A stretch of 64,000 nt of DNA from the human T2T-CHM13v2.0 reference genome, Homo sapiens, in assembly GCF_009914755.1 (NCBI RefSeq), contig NC_060947.1; one strand, written 5' to 3'. The notes beneath the pieces are model-generated. The model saw nothing but the letters and a program-made list of their open reading frames with translations, was not told the origin of the DNA and made no database searches. The position numbers were made by a program, and so were the translations under genes. This document shows positions 1 through 4,800 of the stretch, one piece after another (position 1 is the stretch's first letter; every line of letters starts with the position of its first letter).

Positions 1-1
1 A

Positions 2-41
<40 letters not shown>
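1..41. repeat. (CA)n microsatellite, truncated by window edge
   Basis: About 19 consecutive CA units. Confidence 0.97.
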
Positions 42-43
<2 letters not shown>

Positions 44-394
44 TGGGAAAGTTGCCTGGTAGAGGCACGTGTTGTTGGAGAAAAGTGAGATAACTCACAT
101 CTGTATTTAGACTTAAATATGGGTACACTGGCTCAGAAGGATTTTCGATAAGACATACAAAATATCCAGTATTGGTGAAGGCTGGGAGACAACAGAATGA
201 ATGACTGATTGGGGTAGCCATGGGGAATGCCTTGGGGGAAACACCCTTCTAAGCCATGTGACACACCACAATTAAACTAGGAGAGACAAAGAAGGGTGAG
301 AGGTCACTTTGGAATGACCCTTATTGGTGTTGAGGAAGCTCTCCTTTTTCTCTAACCAGACCATTTAGACTCCTCTGTACCCTGTCCCTCCCCG

Positions 395-472
395 CATGGA
401 ATTGTCAGGAGTGGTGCTTTGTGATGTGTAAGCCATGAAATTGTCAGGAGTGTTGCCTGGTGATGTCTAAGC
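395..472 (+). repeat. 2 x 39-bp tandem duplication in the promoter
   Basis: catggaattgtcaggagtggtgctttgtgatgtgtaagc (395-433) followed by catgaaattgtcaggagtgttgcctggtgatgtctaagc (434-472). Confidence 0.9.
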
Positions 473-571
473 CACCCCAGGGCTACCACTGGCAGAGTAA
501 TTTCTTGCTGGCCAATCAAACTGAAGAATGTGGAATCTCATTGTCCTGAGGAGTATATATAGAGAGAGATC
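395..571 (+). promoter_or_regulatory. Putative Pol II promoter of SPANX/VCX/CSAG-family type
   Basis: CCAAT at 512-516, TATATATA at 554-561, CRE-like TGATGT half sites. The stretches gtgatgtctaagccaccccagggctaccactggc and ggagtatatatagagag resemble the SPANX upstream region as recalled from memory. Confidence 0.6.
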
Positions 572-958
572 ATGAGGCCTGGAGTAGGCTACTGTTGCTC
601 TAGGGTGGCAGGGGTTAGGGAAAAATCAGGAGAGGCTGTAGGCTACTGTTCATCTAGGATGGCAGAGTTTAGTGAAGAAGAGGAAGACACTGTACGCTAC
701 TGTTGTTCTACAATAGAAGATGTTCCTGAAGAAATAAAAGAGGCTATAGCCTACTTTTGCTCTAAGATGGCGGAGATTAACAAGGAGCCAGAAGGGAATA
801 TAGGCCACCATTGCTACGTTATCCCAAAGGTTACCGAGGAAGTAGGAGAAGCTAGTTCAGACATGCCTGAACCATCCACAAGCACAAGCCAAGAAAATCC
901 CAGCATGAAATGGAGAAAGAAAACTACTTGTGAAGCTAAAGAAGGTGAAACTGACGAG
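572..958 (+). CDS. Exon 1 of a putative SPANX/SPANX-N-like small testis protein (129 codons; likely start is ATG 659)
   Basis: Open frame ending ...MPEPSTSTSQENPSMKWRKKTTCEAKEGETDE at a phase-0 donor GAG|gtcaga (959). ATGs at 659 (aggATGG) and 767 (aagATGG) have strong Kozak context. Confidence 0.6.
584..853 (+). repeat. 5 x 54-bp degenerate coding tandem repeat (18-aa unit)
   Basis: Units VGYCCSRVAGVREKSGEA / VGYCSSRMAEFSEEEEDT / VRYCCSTIEDVPEEIKEA / IAYFCSKMAEINKEPEGN / IGHHCYVIPKVTEEVGEA, with no indels. Confidence 0.85.
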
Positions 959-1147
959 GTCAGATATCCCTAATTATGTGACTCTTCCTCCCCATTGATA
1001 CCTAACCCAAGATTCCTACCTTGTCCTTATCTGGCACAAAATCTTTCCTCAACCTGTACACATCATCACAAAATCTCCCTTTCCACACATTCCCCATCCA
1101 CTTCTCCAAATTAATGTCTCTTTTGGCTCACTCTGTTTTTCTTCCAG

Positions 1148-1303
1148 TTGTTGAAGGCAGCAAAGAAGATAAGATCATTTGTTCAGCAGAATTCAGAAAG
1201 ACGTAAAGCGGGGAAAAAGTCAACTGTATTAATTTTTTATTACCACAGTAATAAAAAAAGGGATGAAAATCAGCCAAATGAGGATGAAGACAGCCACGAG
1301 TAA
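1148..1303 (+). CDS. Exon 2 of the putative SPANX-like gene (51 aa + TAA)
   Basis: Strong acceptor ctctgtttttcttccag|TTG. The in-phase frame LLKAAKKIRSFVQQNSERRKAGKKSTVLIFYYHSNKKRDENQPNEDEDSHE* is stop-free. STVLIFYY resembles the SPANX-N hydrophobic core recalled as STVLxFCY/TIIVYYY. Confidence 0.6.
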   Translation: MLKAAKKIRSFVQQNSERRKAGKKSTVLIFYYHSNKKRDENQPNEDEDSHE

Positions 1304-1432
1304 TCTCCCACCTCAAGTGATTCTGAGAGCTCATCAGAAGACCAAGACCTATCTCGTCTCTAGCTTAACCTCTAGAAATGGTCTCCTGTGCAGAGAAACT
1401 ACATATTGCACCAAGATTCTTGGATGTTGGTG

Positions 1433-1490
1433 ATTAAAATTCAACCAAAAGATTTTGAAAAGTTCTGTATATCTCTGTGGTGTTTTCTAA
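1433..1490 (+). terminator. Poly(A) signal ATTAAA with downstream GT-rich element
   Basis: ATTAAA at 1433-1438, 130 nt after the stop, followed by ttctgtatatctctgtggtgtttt. Confidence 0.5.
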
Positions 1491-1849
1491 TAATGGAGAG
1501 GGAGGGAAAGAAGGGGAAGAGCATGTGTATGAGGAGGGAGGGAGTTGAGAACCTTCCAGGTTGTGAGACAGGCTGGTAGCCACAGTTAGCCAGACATTGG
1601 GATTAAGGACTAGATGAGGAACGAGCACTGAAGACAAATTTCCTGCTTAATAATTTATTCCACAGTAAAAGAGGAAAAGGAATTGGTGTTTCTGTGTGTG
1701 TGGGAGGGTGTAGATAGGGAGAGTTGTGATGTGTATGGGGTGGTAGTATGCAACAATGGGTTTGATTCCGTTTTTGATGTTTGTCTGCCGCCAGATTTTA
1801 AGCTTCATCTCATTCCCTTCTCCTACCCCACATCTGATCAAGCTGATAA

Positions 1850-4800
1850 AAACAACTGGAGAGTTACTGAATTTAAAATGGAAATGAACAGATATGCCCA
1901 GCCTCAACTATTTTAATTATTCCCTTGCCTAAAATCCCCATATCCATGGCATCAATTCTTTCCAAATATCCCCTACTGATCATGGACAATCTAACCTAAT
2001 GAGTAATAAATTAAAATTAAGTCTTTGGTACTTGTGATCAGCTTGAAAAATGGGACCCTATGGACTGCCTCACGCAGTTAAAATAAGTTAATAATTAACA
2101 TCTTCCTCCGTTGCTTTTTAAAAAAGCCCAATCTAAATTAAAATAGAATCTTCAATAATTGAAACCCATTATATAAGACCTATTTAGAGAATTAGACCTG
2201 TATAGATGATTACCCTCACTGCTTATGCATTTAACAGCCAAATTTGGATTGTTCTTAAATCTGGAAAATATAAATGGTGCCTCAGTGTATATTACTGTAA
2301 CCTTAATGCCATGGTTCCACTCATCAGGTCTTCATACCTAATATTATTCAATTTACTGATTCCATCCAATACGTATCTGGTAAATAGTTTGCAGTAATAG
2401 CAAAGTATTTGGCTAAATGTCCTGTTCACTTCCTGTTTCAACAGCCTCTCACCTGCAGTGTACTTACCTTCACCTTCAAAGGGACACAATACAACTCTAC
2501 CAGGGTACTTGGTGGGGTATCTTTCCACTTCCGTCATCTCATATAATCTTCACAGGCAGAATATTAACTACATCCAGATTTTCCTAGATGCTCAGGTATG
2601 ACATTACACTGATGACAACCTCTTCTGAGGAGTTTCCTATGAGACACTTCTTCAGGACATAAAAATGTTAGCAAAAAAGATCACAGAAAGGAAATCAGCC
2701 ATTGCCCTCACACATAGTACAAAGCCACACTACATCAGTTAAATTTCTGAAAATTATTTGGTAATCAGAGGGCTGCTCCAATGCAACAGTGTCAAGAAAA
2801 AGCTTTTAGTCTCAGCACCCACATTTTTAAAACAAGTCTAATATCATTTAGACATTTTTGGATCCTGGAGGTAATATATTCCCTACATACAAATTTATTT
2901 AAGTGTATTTGTTCTGTCACTTGTAAATTGGTCCATCTTGAATGAAGCCACCTGCAACAAAAGGCTCTGGAATTTGTCTAAATTGCTATGCAACAGGCAC
3001 TTGTGTTAGGTCTCCCCAGAGACTTAAGCACTGTAGAGATTTTAGCAACCTCATTTCATACTTACTGAAGTCACCAGACCAGCAATGATAGCCTTTAGTT
3101 GCCCATGGGCTTCTGATACAAGGAACTGCTCTGTTTGGCTTTATGCTATATGCCATTAGTGTGGCAACTGGTGGCAACCTACTGGGTTTTGACCAGAAAT
3201 ATAAGTTCTCTCAGGCCCTGTACCTGTGACCCTCAACATCTAGGTGTTCATTATGCCTGGGTCCTGGAATTAGCAACCAGTTAGCTCATCATGGCTAGTG
3301 AATCTTCCTCACTACAGGATGGAGCCACACCTGATTTTTCTGTATGTTCCCACCTACAGGAGACGGTAACTCCTCTGTCCTCAGTCCCTCACTAGATTCC
3401 ACAGTTCTGTAAGACGACATTGCTCTCTCAGACTCCTTGGATAACCAGGGAGTCCCTTAGAATCAACAGAGTGACTACCGAAGGATTATCATTCACTATT
3501 ACCAATGGCATTACCACCCTCACCCCTAATAGAGGTTGCTTGGGAACTGCTGCTTTTCATATCTTAACCAAGATTTCCCTGATAAAGGACAAAACCCAAG
3601 ATTCAGTTGGCCAAACTAAACAATCATCTTAACACTGGATGTCCTGGCCATTAATTGACCTCATCTGAACATTTTTAGAGACCTTTGAGCTATTGTCAAT
3701 TGTCTGACTATTTGGTCTGGTGTTGTGGGAAGTCAGGGACCCCAAATGGACGGAACGGCTGAAGCCATGGCAGAAGAACGTGAATTGTGAAGATTTCATG
3801 GACATTTATTAGTTCCCCAAATTAATACTTTTGTAATTTCTTATGCCTGTCTTTACTGCAGTCTCTAAACATAACTTGTAAAGATTTCATGGACACTTAT
3901 CACTTCCCCAATCAATACCCTTGTGGTTTCCTATGCCGTCTTTACTTTAATCTCTTAATCCTGTCAGCTGATGAGGATGTATATCGCCTCAGGGCCCTGT
4001 AATAATTGCATTAACTGCACAAATTGTACAGCATGTGTGTTTGAGCAATATGAAATGTGGGCACCTTGAAAAAAGAACAGGATAACAGCAGTTGTTCAGG
4101 GAATAAGAGAGATAACCTTAAACTCTGACCGCTGGTAAGCCGGTTGAAACAGAGCCATATTTCTCTTCTTTCAAAAGCAAATGGGAGAAATATTGCTGAA
4201 TTCTTTTTCTCAGCATGGAACATCCCTGAGAAAGAGAATGCGTACCTGGGGGTGGGTTTCTGAACTGCCCCCCCGGGCGTGGTTGTCTCTTTTGGTCGAG
4301 ACTGCAGAGGTGAAATAGAGTCCAGTCTCCCATAGTGCTCCCAGGCTGATTAGGAAGAGGAAATTCCCACCTAATAAATTTTGGTCAGACCGGTTGATCT
4401 CAAAACGCTGTCTCCTGATAAGATGTTATCAATGACAATGGTGCCCGAAACTTCATTAGCAATTTTAATTCTGCCTCGGTCCTGTGGTCCTATCATCTCA
4501 CCCTGCCTCCACTTGCCTTGTGATATTCTATTACCTTGTAAAGTACTTGATGTCTGTGATCCACACCTATTTGCACACTCCCTCCCCTTTTGAAACTCCC
4601 TAATAAAAACTTGCTGGTTTTTGTGGCTTGTGGGGCATCACGGAACCTACGGACACGTGATGTCTCCCCCGGACGCCCAGCTTTAAAATTTCTCTCTTTT
4701 GTACTCTGTCCCTTTATTTCTCAAGCTGGCCGACGCTTGAGGAAAATAGAAAAGAACCTACGTGAATATTGGGGCAGATTACCCAATAGTCTGGCCATTG

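What the first reader, a model, noticed from the sequence alone, without database searches (positions are those of the whole stretch)
395..1490. Apparently intact two-exon SPANX-like gene that the ORF track misses
Seen: CCAAT and TATA boxes, exon 1 (572-958), a 189-nt GT-AG phase-0 intron and exon 2 (1148-1303) splice into a stop-free 180-codon frame, followed by ATTAAA and a GT-rich element. Knowledge (recalled, not searched): SPANX/SPANX-N genes have this two-exon phase-0 layout. Their exon 1 ends in a S/T-rich-basic-CE-acidic segment and exon 2 carries a basic-STVL-aromatic core, matched here by PSTSTS..KWRKKTTCEAKEGETDE | ..KKSTVLIFYY. Inference: a divergent, possibly unannotated spermatid (cancer/testis) gene, probably X-linked. 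I do not recognise it as a named gene.
Basis: partly seen in the sequence, partly recalled or inferred. Interest (0 to 1): 0.8.

Follow-up and report, generated by a model that had tools for sequence, protein, structure and literature searches.

The report
Overlooked SPANX-related gene labelled non-coding
A human X-chromosome gene now labelled as non-coding RNA (LOC645188) is a distant relative of the SPANX sperm-protein genes that keeps an unbroken two-exon reading frame also found in monkeys and apes, so it may well make a protein.

Summary
The two-exon structure is real. The splice junction (958/1148), TATA box, ATTAAA signal and transcript end match RefSeq lncRNA LOC645188.

The first AUG in the transcript is at 659, in the context AGGATGG. 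It opens 151 codons, not 180.

Descent from the SPANX family holds on four counts:
- Promoter, intron, exon 2 and 3' flank align at 61-72% DNA identity with all ten SPANX-A/D and SPANX-N loci.
- hhalign of exon 2 against SPANX exon 2 gives 89.7% probability.
- A SPANX HMM I built scores the spliced product 22.1 bits; 0 of 2000 shuffles reach it.
- The intron sits at the same place and in the same phase.

Pfam's own SPAN-X cut-off is not met (15-16 bits against 22).

Predicted proteins with the same layout exist in gorilla, gibbon, three Old World and two New World monkeys. Shorter single-unit relatives occur in mouse lemur, pig and carnivores. They form a clade separate from SPANX-N/A-D (100/100 support).

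Exon 1 carries five in-frame 54-bp units. Each is built from the 5' leader, the start codon and the first codons.

Translation in humans is not shown. Human and gorilla share an earlier stop.

The parts
395..474 (+). 39-bp tandem duplication (2.1 copies) of a conserved SPANX-type upstream promoter block
   Evidence: TRF. In the blastn table, SPANX-N locus L012 positions 1779-1810 are used twice, by window 77-435 and by 443-566. The block aligns with the conserved GTCAG...GTGATGTC.AAGCC element of all relatives. It is not the coding 39-bp SPANX-N minisatellite.
443..582 (+). Core promoter shared with SPANX-A/D, SPANX-N and two other X loci. Forward CCAAT at 512-516 and TATA box at 554-561. The inverted CCAAT (CCATTGG) that all 9 relatives keep reads CCACTGG here.
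   Evidence: Own-genome DNA search, blastn, alignment A1, sequence.
583..958 (+). Exon 1 of RefSeq NR_171017.1. The transcription start at 583 is 29 nt after the first T of the TATA box.
   Evidence: Hub annotation; sequence.
587..856 (+). Five in-register 54-bp (18-codon) tandem units. Each is 18 nt of former 5' leader, the start-codon position and 11 codons. Units 2 and 4 keep ATG; unit 1 has GTG, unit 3 ATA, unit 5 ATC.
   Evidence: TRF. Unit table, pairwise identity 28-41 of 54. SPANX genes lack about 216 bp here.
659..958 (+). Coding part of exon 1 from the first AUG of the transcript (100 codons)
   Evidence: The gorilla and gibbon predictions start at the same residue.
863..958 (+). SPANX-homologous end of exon 1. 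Its Met, followed by a P-x-P-S-T-S stretch, corresponds to the SPANX-N initiator (M-E-Q-P-T-S-S). A basic stretch, Cys and an acidic end follow, then a phase-0 donor.
   Evidence: The lemur protein aligns from its 15th residue to residue 1 of SPANX-N.
959..1147 (+). GT-AG phase-0 intron, homologous to the last ~185 nt of the SPANX introns
   Evidence: window 961-1272 aligns with SPANXN5 locus L011 1876-1568, running into exon 2.
1148..1303 (+). Exon 2 coding part (51 codons plus TAA) with the conserved basic / S-T-V-L-I-F-Y-Y / basic core
   Evidence: Pfam SPAN-X 15.0 bits; hhalign 89.7%; blastp against SPANXN4 exon 2, 10 of 19 identical.
1304..1363 (+). Former coding tail. It is open for 19 more codons after the TAA and matches the serine/acidic tail that gibbon and monkeys still translate.
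   Evidence: Of the 14 database proteins aligned, only the gorilla one stops there, as the human frame does; the other 13 run on.
1304..1461 (+). 3' UTR with ATTAAA at 1433-1438; annotated transcript end at 1461
   Evidence: hub annotation.
1393..1719 (+). 3' flank homologous to the 3' flanks of SPANX genes (67-71% identity)

Best explanation
LOC645188 is an old, diverged member of the SPANX gene superfamily. It is probably a protein-coding gene that is currently labelled lncRNA.

Shown:
- It shares with all SPANX-A/D and SPANX-N genes a TATA-box promoter, a single phase-0 intron at the homologous place, the exon-2 core and the 3' flank.
- Its annotated 690-nt RNA has a 76-nt leader and a first AUG at 659 in a strong context.
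- That AUG opens a 151-codon ORF ending in the last exon, followed by a 158-nt 3' UTR with ATTAAA.
- The same ORF layout is predicted in seven other anthropoid primates.
- The family tree follows the species tree and is separate from SPANX-N/A-D.

Inferred:
- The gene is transcribed after meiosis in spermatids from the SPANX-type promoter, which is methylation-controlled and of the cancer/testis kind.
- It is translated into an acidic, largely disordered protein. This has four translated 18-residue Cys-bearing acidic repeats, then a SPANX-like module: a predicted helix across the exon junction, basic patches and a short hydrophobic S-T-V-L-I-F-Y-Y stretch.
- By analogy with SPANX proteins, it would associate with spermatid nuclear-envelope or acrosomal structures.

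The repeat array arose in the anthropoid ancestor. A 54-bp module holding the last 18 nt of the 5' leader, the start codon and the first 11 codons was duplicated in tandem and in frame, so former leader sequence became coding.
For: Homology:
- blastn of window 1-2500 aligns 73-582, 961-1305 and 1393-1719 with every SPANX locus fetched, at 61-72% identity.
- The promoter alignment shows many columns invariant across all ten sequences, among them the shared TATA box.
- Pfam SPAN-X matches are collinear: exon 2 residues 12-46 against profile 37-71, and gorilla orthologue 86-146 against 12-71.
- hhalign gives probability 89.7%, E 1.9e-6.
- An HMM built from 8 human SPANX proteins scores the spliced human product 22.1 bits. 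0 of 2000 shuffles reach it (maximum 11.9), and the alignment crosses the exon junction.

Coding likeness:
- The first AUG context and the ORF/UTR layout look like an mRNA.
- 0 of 5000 shuffled transcripts reach 151 codons.

Conservation:
- Predicted proteins: gorilla 151 aa (146 of 151 identical), gibbon 171 aa, Macaca nemestrina 181, Rhinopithecus 178, Nasalis 177, marmoset 185, Aotus 241. Single-unit relatives occur in mouse lemur, pig and seven carnivores.
- 9 of 9 non-human members tested have LOC645188 as their best human match (57-207 bits). SPANX-N scores up to 45 and SPANX-A/D up to 26.
- In the trees, the family splits from SPANX-N/A-D at 100/100 and 100/99. The anthropoid clade has 100/100 support with species-tree order.
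- The jackal member passes Pfam's SPAN-X cut-off (25.1 against 22).

Structure: the model is mostly disordered, with helices at 24-40 and 95-120 (mean pLDDT 46).

Expression: a microarray table lists LOC645188 as changed in a breast-cancer cell line.
Against: - RefSeq curators class the human gene as lncRNA (hub table).
- No tool here gives RNA-seq, Ribo-seq or peptide evidence, so translation in humans is not shown.
- Of the 14 database proteins aligned, only the gorilla one stops where the human frame stops. The other 13 carry a longer tail, so a conserved C-terminal tail is lost.
- The inverted CCAAT box kept by all 9 aligned relatives is altered here.
- Mismatches among the five repeat units are spread evenly over codon positions (72, 70, 66). 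There is no third-position excess, so the repeats show no sign of amino-acid constraint.
- Human-gibbon identity is only 135 of 172 aligned columns. By my own rough estimate that is at or above neutral expectation. It fits positive selection or relaxed constraint equally well.
- Pfam's curated SPAN-X cut-off is not reached by the human exons (15.0 bits) or the gorilla protein (15.8), and the gibbon protein gives no SPAN-X match at all at E up to 10.
- The primate evidence comes from protein databases, which cannot show broken orthologues. No chimpanzee, bonobo or orang-utan entry was seen.
- Motor-neuron RNA-seq shows zero expression. That is expected for a testis gene but does not help.
Confidence: 0.6

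Rival explanations
1. The human gene is a transcribed relic or a true lncRNA, as RefSeq has it. It descends from a SPANX-related coding gene, but in the African-ape lineage it is decaying or already untranslated, and the open frame is a leftover.
For: - RefSeq classes it as lncRNA (hub table).
- Human and gorilla share a stop that cuts off the tail kept by the other 13 of the 14 database proteins aligned.
- The conserved inverted CCAAT box is altered.
- The repeats show no codon-position bias.
- The human-gorilla differences (5 of 151) are about what I would roughly expect under neutrality.
- A sister locus at Xp22.2 has already decayed, showing that this subfamily does lose members in humans.
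Against: - A 151-codon frame with no stop or frameshift fills 66% of the transcript, starts at the first AUG in a strong context and ends in the last exon.
- SPANX-N1 and SPANX-N5 are likewise truncated by a premature stop before their tail and are still treated as genes (passages of PMC1831492).
- In the tree, the human end branch has length 0. All four human-gorilla differences in the 83 residues used for that tree fall on the gorilla branch.
- Exon 2 is identical in human and gorilla.
Confidence: 0.33
2. The protein is the reader's 180-residue product starting at ATG 572, made from a transcript that starts further upstream than annotated.
For: The frame is open from 572.
Against: - ATG 572 starts only 10 nt past the end of the TATA box (554-561) and 11 nt before the annotated start at 583 (hub table).
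- The gorilla, gibbon and all three Old World monkey predictions start at the residue equal to ATG 659.
- The TATA box is the conserved one of the whole family.
Confidence: 0.05
3. The ORF and its SPANX likeness are chance features of a purine-rich non-coding transcript.
For: The Pfam scores are below the cut-off. Low-complexity acidic and basic composition can inflate weak matches.
Against: - 0 of 5000 shuffled transcripts reach the ORF length.
- 0 of 2000 shuffled proteins reach the SPANX HMM score.
- DNA homology extends through non-coding promoter, intron and flank.
- Orthologues exist across primates.
Confidence: 0.01

Closest known systems
SPANX-N genes (SPANXN1-N5, Xq27 and Xp11)
   Same: - X-linked and two exons, with the phase-0 intron at the homologous place.
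- Shared TATA promoter block.
- Exon 1 ends in an S/T-rich, basic, Cys, acidic stretch.
- Exon 2 has a basic / T-(I/V)-L-V / aromatic / basic core.
- A serine/acidic tail follows. In N1 and N5, as here, that tail lies behind a premature stop (passages of PMC1831492).
   Different: - DNA identity is only 61-72%.
- The Pfam cut-off is not met.
- The locus forms a separate clade.
- The intron is 189 nt. By the exon coordinates, four SPANX-N genes have introns of about 8 kb and SPANXN5 about 630 nt.
- Translation starts upstream of the SPANX-N initiator position.
- Exon 1 carries a five-unit 54-bp array that SPANX-N lacks.
SPANX-A/D genes (SPANXA1, A2, B1, C, D), its neighbours in Xq27
   Same: Same promoter block, gene layout and core. 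LOC645188 lies between SPANXA2 and SPANXD (hub table).
   Different: These are the most distant at protein level: blastp of family members gives at most 26 bits. The C-terminus differs. According to PMC1831492 (abstract), SPANX-A/D is specific to hominoids, whereas the LOC645188 type is found across anthropoids and beyond.
Automatically predicted 'uncharacterized protein' entries, e.g. LOC116465302 (Hylobates moloch), LOC108589793 (Callithrix jacchus), LOC115898640 (Rhinopithecus roxellana), LOC109730269 (Microcebus murinus), LOC110257823 (Sus scrofa)
   Same: Same subfamily. The anthropoid entries are orthologues with the same repeats and core, 61-98% identical.
   Different: - The human locus alone is labelled non-coding.
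- Non-anthropoid members have one unit instead of an array and a longer C-terminal tail.
- It is unresolved whether they are orthologous to LOC645188 or to the decayed Xp22.2 copy.
- 6 of the 21 hits carry a precomputed label PF27987.1, which the local Pfam copy does not hold.
CYPT (cysteine-rich perinuclear theca) genes of mouse
   Same: Recalled, not tested: X-linked, spermatid-specific small genes with a strong portable promoter. Passages of PMC3363334 describe that promoter driving Zfy2.
   Different: No CYPT-type family appeared in the Pfam scans at E up to 10.

Membership tests
SPANX family as defined by Pfam PF07458 (SPAN-X) | Score at or above the curated gathering cut-off (22 bits) | tested here: not met
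   Human exon 2 scores 15.0 bits. The gorilla orthologue, 146 of 151 identical to human, scores 15.8 bits, and gibbon gives no match. PF07458 run over the whole human genome found SPANX A/D and N exons but not this locus. One subfamily member, the jackal protein, does pass at 25.1 bits.
SPANX superfamily by common descent | Homologous DNA across promoter, intron, exon 2 and 3' flank | tested here: met
   61-72% identity to all SPANX loci fetched, E down to 1e-59; shared promoter columns.
SPANX superfamily by common descent | Two coding exons with a phase-0 intron at the homologous position | tested here: met
   Donor after codon 129 of the 572 frame and acceptor at 1148. The SPANX exon ends are also phase 0. 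The HMM alignment runs collinearly across the junction.
SPANX superfamily by common descent | Significant collinear protein similarity to the SPANX core | tested here: met
   hhalign probability 89.7%, E 1.9e-6. My own SPANX HMM gives 22.1 bits, against a maximum of 11.9 in 2000 shuffles.
SPANX superfamily | X-linked, within or near the Xq27 SPANX cluster | tested here: met
   The window is chrX:139,934,001-139,998,000. SPANX exons lie at 139.89-139.90 Mb and 140.006 Mb (hub table).
SPANX superfamily | Post-meiotic testis expression, cancer/testis expression pattern and sperm localisation | not testable with these tools
   Only two expression tables mention the gene: one in a breast-cancer cell line and one showing zero in motor neurons.
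LOC645188-type subfamily (anthropoid orthologues plus single-unit eutherian relatives) | Best-hit relation and one clade apart from SPANX-N/A-D | tested here: met
   9 of 9 non-human members hit LOC645188 best among the human proteins. Clade support is 100/100 and 100/99.
LOC645188-type subfamily | Match to the Pfam model PF27987 that some members carry | not testable with these tools
   The accession is not in the local library. Its name is unknown to me.

The most novel reading that the evidence does not exclude
LOC645188 is a working human protein gene, the surviving human member of a third and oldest SPANX subfamily that is found across placental mammals and from which, or beside which, SPANX-N and SPANX-A/D arose. 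Its N-terminal domain was created in the anthropoid ancestor by an in-frame minisatellite whose 54-bp unit carries the end of the 5' leader, the start codon and the first codons. Untranslated leader thereby became a Cys-bearing acidic repeat. The copy number still varies between species: 5 units in the human DNA and in the marmoset protein, 8 in the Aotus protein.
Probability: 0.4. Interest if true: 0.6.

Novelty: new member of a known kind. Interest (0 to 1): 0.5.

Why it matters
If the 151-residue product is made, the human SPANX family has an unrecognised member. The family is studied as cancer/testis antigens, in male fertility, and because its genes lie within the Xq27 prostate-cancer (HPCX) and testicular germ-cell-tumour susceptibility regions. 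The new member sits in the middle of the SPANX-A/D cluster. It would be a candidate tumour antigen and sperm protein missing from proteome references.

In evolutionary terms, it offers a deeper outgroup for the SPANX radiation. It is also a clear example of new coding sequence made by tandem duplication of a module containing the 5' leader and start codon.

If it is not translated, it is an ordinary transcribed relic.

Tried and rejected
- **Own-genome protein searches.** The two exon translations found no paralogue: only the locus itself and chance-level hits. The relation to SPANX appeared only at DNA level and with profiles.
- **Exon-1 alignment.** MAFFT alignment of exon 1 with the SPANX exon-1 regions was scrambled by the repeats. 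I used only its promoter part.
- **Flawed tree.** The tree is wrong: I used the wrong reading frame for the Xp22.2 locus and trimmed two monkey rows wrongly. I discarded it and redid it.
- **Xp22.2 copy.** Its place in the tree stayed unresolved.
- **Two related X loci.** Pfam gave only one chance-level match (YuzL, E 0.056) and no SPANX-type family for their ORFs.
- **Structure.** The prediction gave a low-confidence, mostly disordered model, so I ran no fold search.
- **Literature.** 'LOC645188' occurs in 2 papers, in expression tables only. 'NR_171017' occurs in 0 papers. A broader search (SPANX, unannotated, testis, Ribo-seq, de novo gene, X-linked) gave nothing relevant in the 15 papers listed of 121 that held the terms. 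The three held supplements of PMC12527196 do not name the gene. Most supplements of other papers were not searched.
- PF27987 is not in the local Pfam. An alignment query is not accepted for this genome, so I used one protein instead.
- **The 39-bp repeat at 395-474.** I considered and rejected that it is the SPANX-N coding minisatellite. It is a duplicated promoter block.
Full report
**1. The observation**

- CCAAT at 512-516 and TATATATA at 554-561.
- A frame open from ATG 572 to 958, followed by GT.
- An intron of 189 nt (959-1147) ending in AG.
- A second coding stretch from 1148 to the TAA at 1301-1303.
- ATTAAA at 1433-1438 and a GT-rich stretch after it.

The splice junction and the 3' end (1461, which is 23 nt after ATTAAA) are those of RefSeq NR_171017.1 (LOC645188) in the hub's table. 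The gene model is therefore real and already annotated, but as lncRNA.

A plain ORF list shows only the exon-1 part, 572-973, 133 aa. The other two frames of exon 1 carry 9 and 14 stops. None of 5000 shuffles of the 690-nt transcript gave an ORF of 151 codons or more (median 37, maximum 137).

**2. A correction**

ATG 572 lies between the TATA box and the annotated transcription start at 583, which is 29 nt after the first T of the box. That ATG is therefore not in the RNA.

The first ATG of the transcript is at 659, with A at -3 and G at +4. No upstream ATG occurs in any frame. This ATG opens 151 codons, leaving a 76-nt leader and a 158-nt 3' UTR, and the stop is in the last exon. NCBI's gorilla prediction has exactly this start and length.

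**3. Relation to SPANX**

*Pfam.* The match is weak but in register:
- Exon 2 scores 15.0 bits against SPAN-X (cut-off 22), residues 12-46 against profile 37-71.
- The gorilla orthologue, 146 of 151 identical to human, scores 15.8 bits over 86-146 against 12-71. The gibbon one gives no SPAN-X match.
- PF07458 run over the whole genome found the exons of all ten SPANX-A/D and SPANX-N genes (21 matches) but not this locus.

*DNA.* A search of the genome with window 301-1600 found the promoter part upstream of SPANXN5 and another SPANX-N gene, and at two further X loci. A sensitive blastn of window 1-2500 against all fetched loci then aligned three segments with every SPANX-A/D and SPANX-N locus:
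- 73-582: upstream region and promoter.
- 961-1305: intron and exon 2.
- 1393-1719: 3' flank.

Identity was 61-72%, with E down to 1e-59. The stretch 594-843 has no counterpart, and the gap equals four 54-bp units (216 bp).

*Promoter.* The alignment A1 shows the TATA box and long blocks shared by all ten sequences. Two local differences stand out:
- The inverted CCAAT box (CCATTGG), present in all nine relatives, reads CCACTGG here.
- A forward CCAAT (512-516) is shared only with the Xq28 locus.

The 39-bp tandem repeat at 395-474 is a duplication of a conserved promoter block, not the SPANX-N coding minisatellite.

SPANX-N exon 1 runs initiator, S/T-rich stretch, basic, Cys, acidic, then a phase-0 donor. 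LOC645188 has the same order from its Met at 863 to 958. Two profile tests agree:
- hhalign of a ten-sequence SPANX exon-2 alignment (A2) against LOC645188 exon 2 gives 89.7% probability, E 1.9e-6, columns 13-44 against 14-45.
- An HMM built from eight human SPANX proteins scores the spliced human product 22.1 bits, collinear across the exon junction. The best of 2000 composition-matched shuffles scores 11.9.

Common descent is therefore well supported, although the curated Pfam threshold is not met.

**4. Relatives in other species**

The exon-1 translation found a gorilla protein (151 aa, 98%) and a gibbon protein (171 aa, 79%). A full HMMER scan with the gibbon protein, followed by a profile search, gave 21 proteins:
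- Gorilla, gibbon, Macaca nemestrina (181 aa), Rhinopithecus (178) and Nasalis (177).
- Marmoset (185) and Aotus (241).
- Mouse lemur (134) and pig (132).
- Several carnivores (105-133). One fox entry is named SPANX-N2 isoform X2.

All others are 'uncharacterized' or 'hypothetical'. Six carry a precomputed label PF27987.1, which the local Pfam does not hold. The jackal member passes Pfam's SPAN-X cut-off at 25.1 bits.

Against a set of human proteins, 9 of 9 non-human members tested hit LOC645188 best (57-207 bits), then SPANX-N (up to 45) and SPANX-A/D (up to 26). In maximum-likelihood trees the LOC645188 family is split from human SPANX-N/A-D with 100/100 and 100/99 support. The eight anthropoid rows form a 100/100 clade in species-tree order, as expected for orthologues. 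The tree was flawed by my own coordinate errors and is not used.

**5. The repeat array**

Exon 1 holds five 54-bp units in perfect register at 587-856, with pairwise identity of 28-41 of 54. Each unit consists of 18 nt of leader, the start-codon position and 11 codons. The start-codon position reads:
- ATG in units 2 and 4.
- GTG in unit 1.
- ATA in unit 3.
- ATC in unit 5.

Lemur, pig and carnivore proteins have a single unit and start with M-A-E-V. By my reading of the protein sequences, marmoset has five units and Aotus eight. Three database proteins that read through from upstream show Cys-Cys-Tyr-Asn just before that Met. This matches the Cys pair that precedes the Met position in each primate unit.

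I infer that in the anthropoid ancestor a tandem, in-frame duplication of 'leader end, start codon and first codons' turned leader sequence into coding repeats.

Mismatches among the human units are spread evenly over codon positions (72, 70, 66). The repeats therefore show no amino-acid constraint, only maintenance of the frame.

**6. For and against translation in humans**

For:
- The transcript has the layout of an mRNA.
- The frame is kept in eight anthropoid species including human.
- Exon 2 is identical between human and gorilla.
- The human end branch of the tree has length zero.

Against:
- RefSeq's curated lncRNA label.
- The frame stops where gibbon reads on through a 20-residue serine/acidic tail (gibbon has Glu at the position of the stop). 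Of the 14 database proteins aligned, only the gorilla one stops where the human frame does. The human DNA stays open for 19 codons after the TAA. SPANX-N1 and SPANX-N5 are truncated in the same manner (passages of PMC1831492).
- The CCAAT box is altered.
- Human-gibbon identity is only 135 of 172 columns. By my own rough estimate this is at or above the neutral expectation.
- A protein database cannot show broken orthologues, and no chimpanzee, bonobo or orang-utan entry was seen.

The AlphaFold2 model, built on the gorilla sequence with the 14-row alignment, is mostly disordered. It has helices at 24-40 and 95-120 and a mean pLDDT of 46. This fits a SPANX-like, largely unstructured protein.

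Expression data in print are limited to two tables.

**7. Other human copies**

The mouse lemur protein, searched against the human genome, finds two places:
- LOC645188 exon 2, E 1.3e-5.
- A locus at chrX:11.48 Mb, whose exon-2 match holds three stops.

Reading that locus shows an open 49-codon exon 1 starting M-A-E-I-T-D-K-P, but in-frame stops after either possible acceptor. It is a decayed sister copy. In the tree its place is unresolved, and its nearest row is mouse lemur (41% over 79 columns). Whether the non-anthropoid genes are orthologues of LOC645188 or of this relic therefore remains open.

**8. Verdict**

The SPANX-like interpretation is supported.

The locus is a diverged SPANX-superfamily gene of a separate, widely distributed subfamily, with an intact 151-codon frame. 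It is probably coding (about 0.6), and the lncRNA/relic reading stands at about 0.33.

It is a new member of a known kind, not a new kind of element. Interest is moderate.

Noticed in passing
L026 1260-1830 (-) = chrX:11,482,650-11,483,220 of the same assembly (outside the window): A decayed sister copy of LOC645188 at Xp22.2. It has the same promoter with TATA box, an open 49-codon exon 1 and a homologous intron. Exon 2 has in-frame stops after either possible acceptor, and an 11-A run lies just after the second acceptor.
   Followed up: partly
L025 1169-2544 (+) = chrX:149,783,150-149,784,525 (outside the window): A further X locus whose DNA is homologous over the promoter (64%) and over intron, exon 2 and flank (59%). 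Its exon-1 ORF of 37 codons ends in TGA two bases before the GT donor. Pfam gave only a chance-level match (YuzL, E 0.056). I did not establish its identity.
   Followed up: partly
L017 1570-1580 (+) = chrX:139,898,563-139,898,573 (SPANXA2, outside the window): In this assembly the exon-1 donor of the copy the hub calls SPANXA2 reads ATG|TTAAGA. The three other single-unit SPANX-A/D copies fetched read ATG|GTAAGA, and the fifth copy (L022) keeps GTAAGA after extra repeat units. The canonical GT is therefore changed to TT. This could be an allele, a functional loss or an assembly error.
   Followed up: no
window 395-474: A 39-bp tandem duplication (87% matches between copies) doubles a promoter block conserved in all SPANX genes. 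PMC1831492 reports a CTCF/BORIS site in SPANX promoters. I could not check whether this block is that site.
   Followed up: partly
L023 = chrX:100,446,290-100,446,439 (+) (outside the window): A weak Pfam SPAN-X match (19.8 bits, E 2.8, one TAG inside), far from the SPANX clusters. It is probably chance.
   Followed up: no
P0013 (Aotus nancymaae, 241 aa) against P0003 (marmoset, 185 aa): By my reading of the protein sequences, the number of 18-residue N-terminal units differs between New World monkeys (8 against 5). Several Aotus units are nearly identical to each other, which suggests recent in-frame expansion.
   Followed up: no
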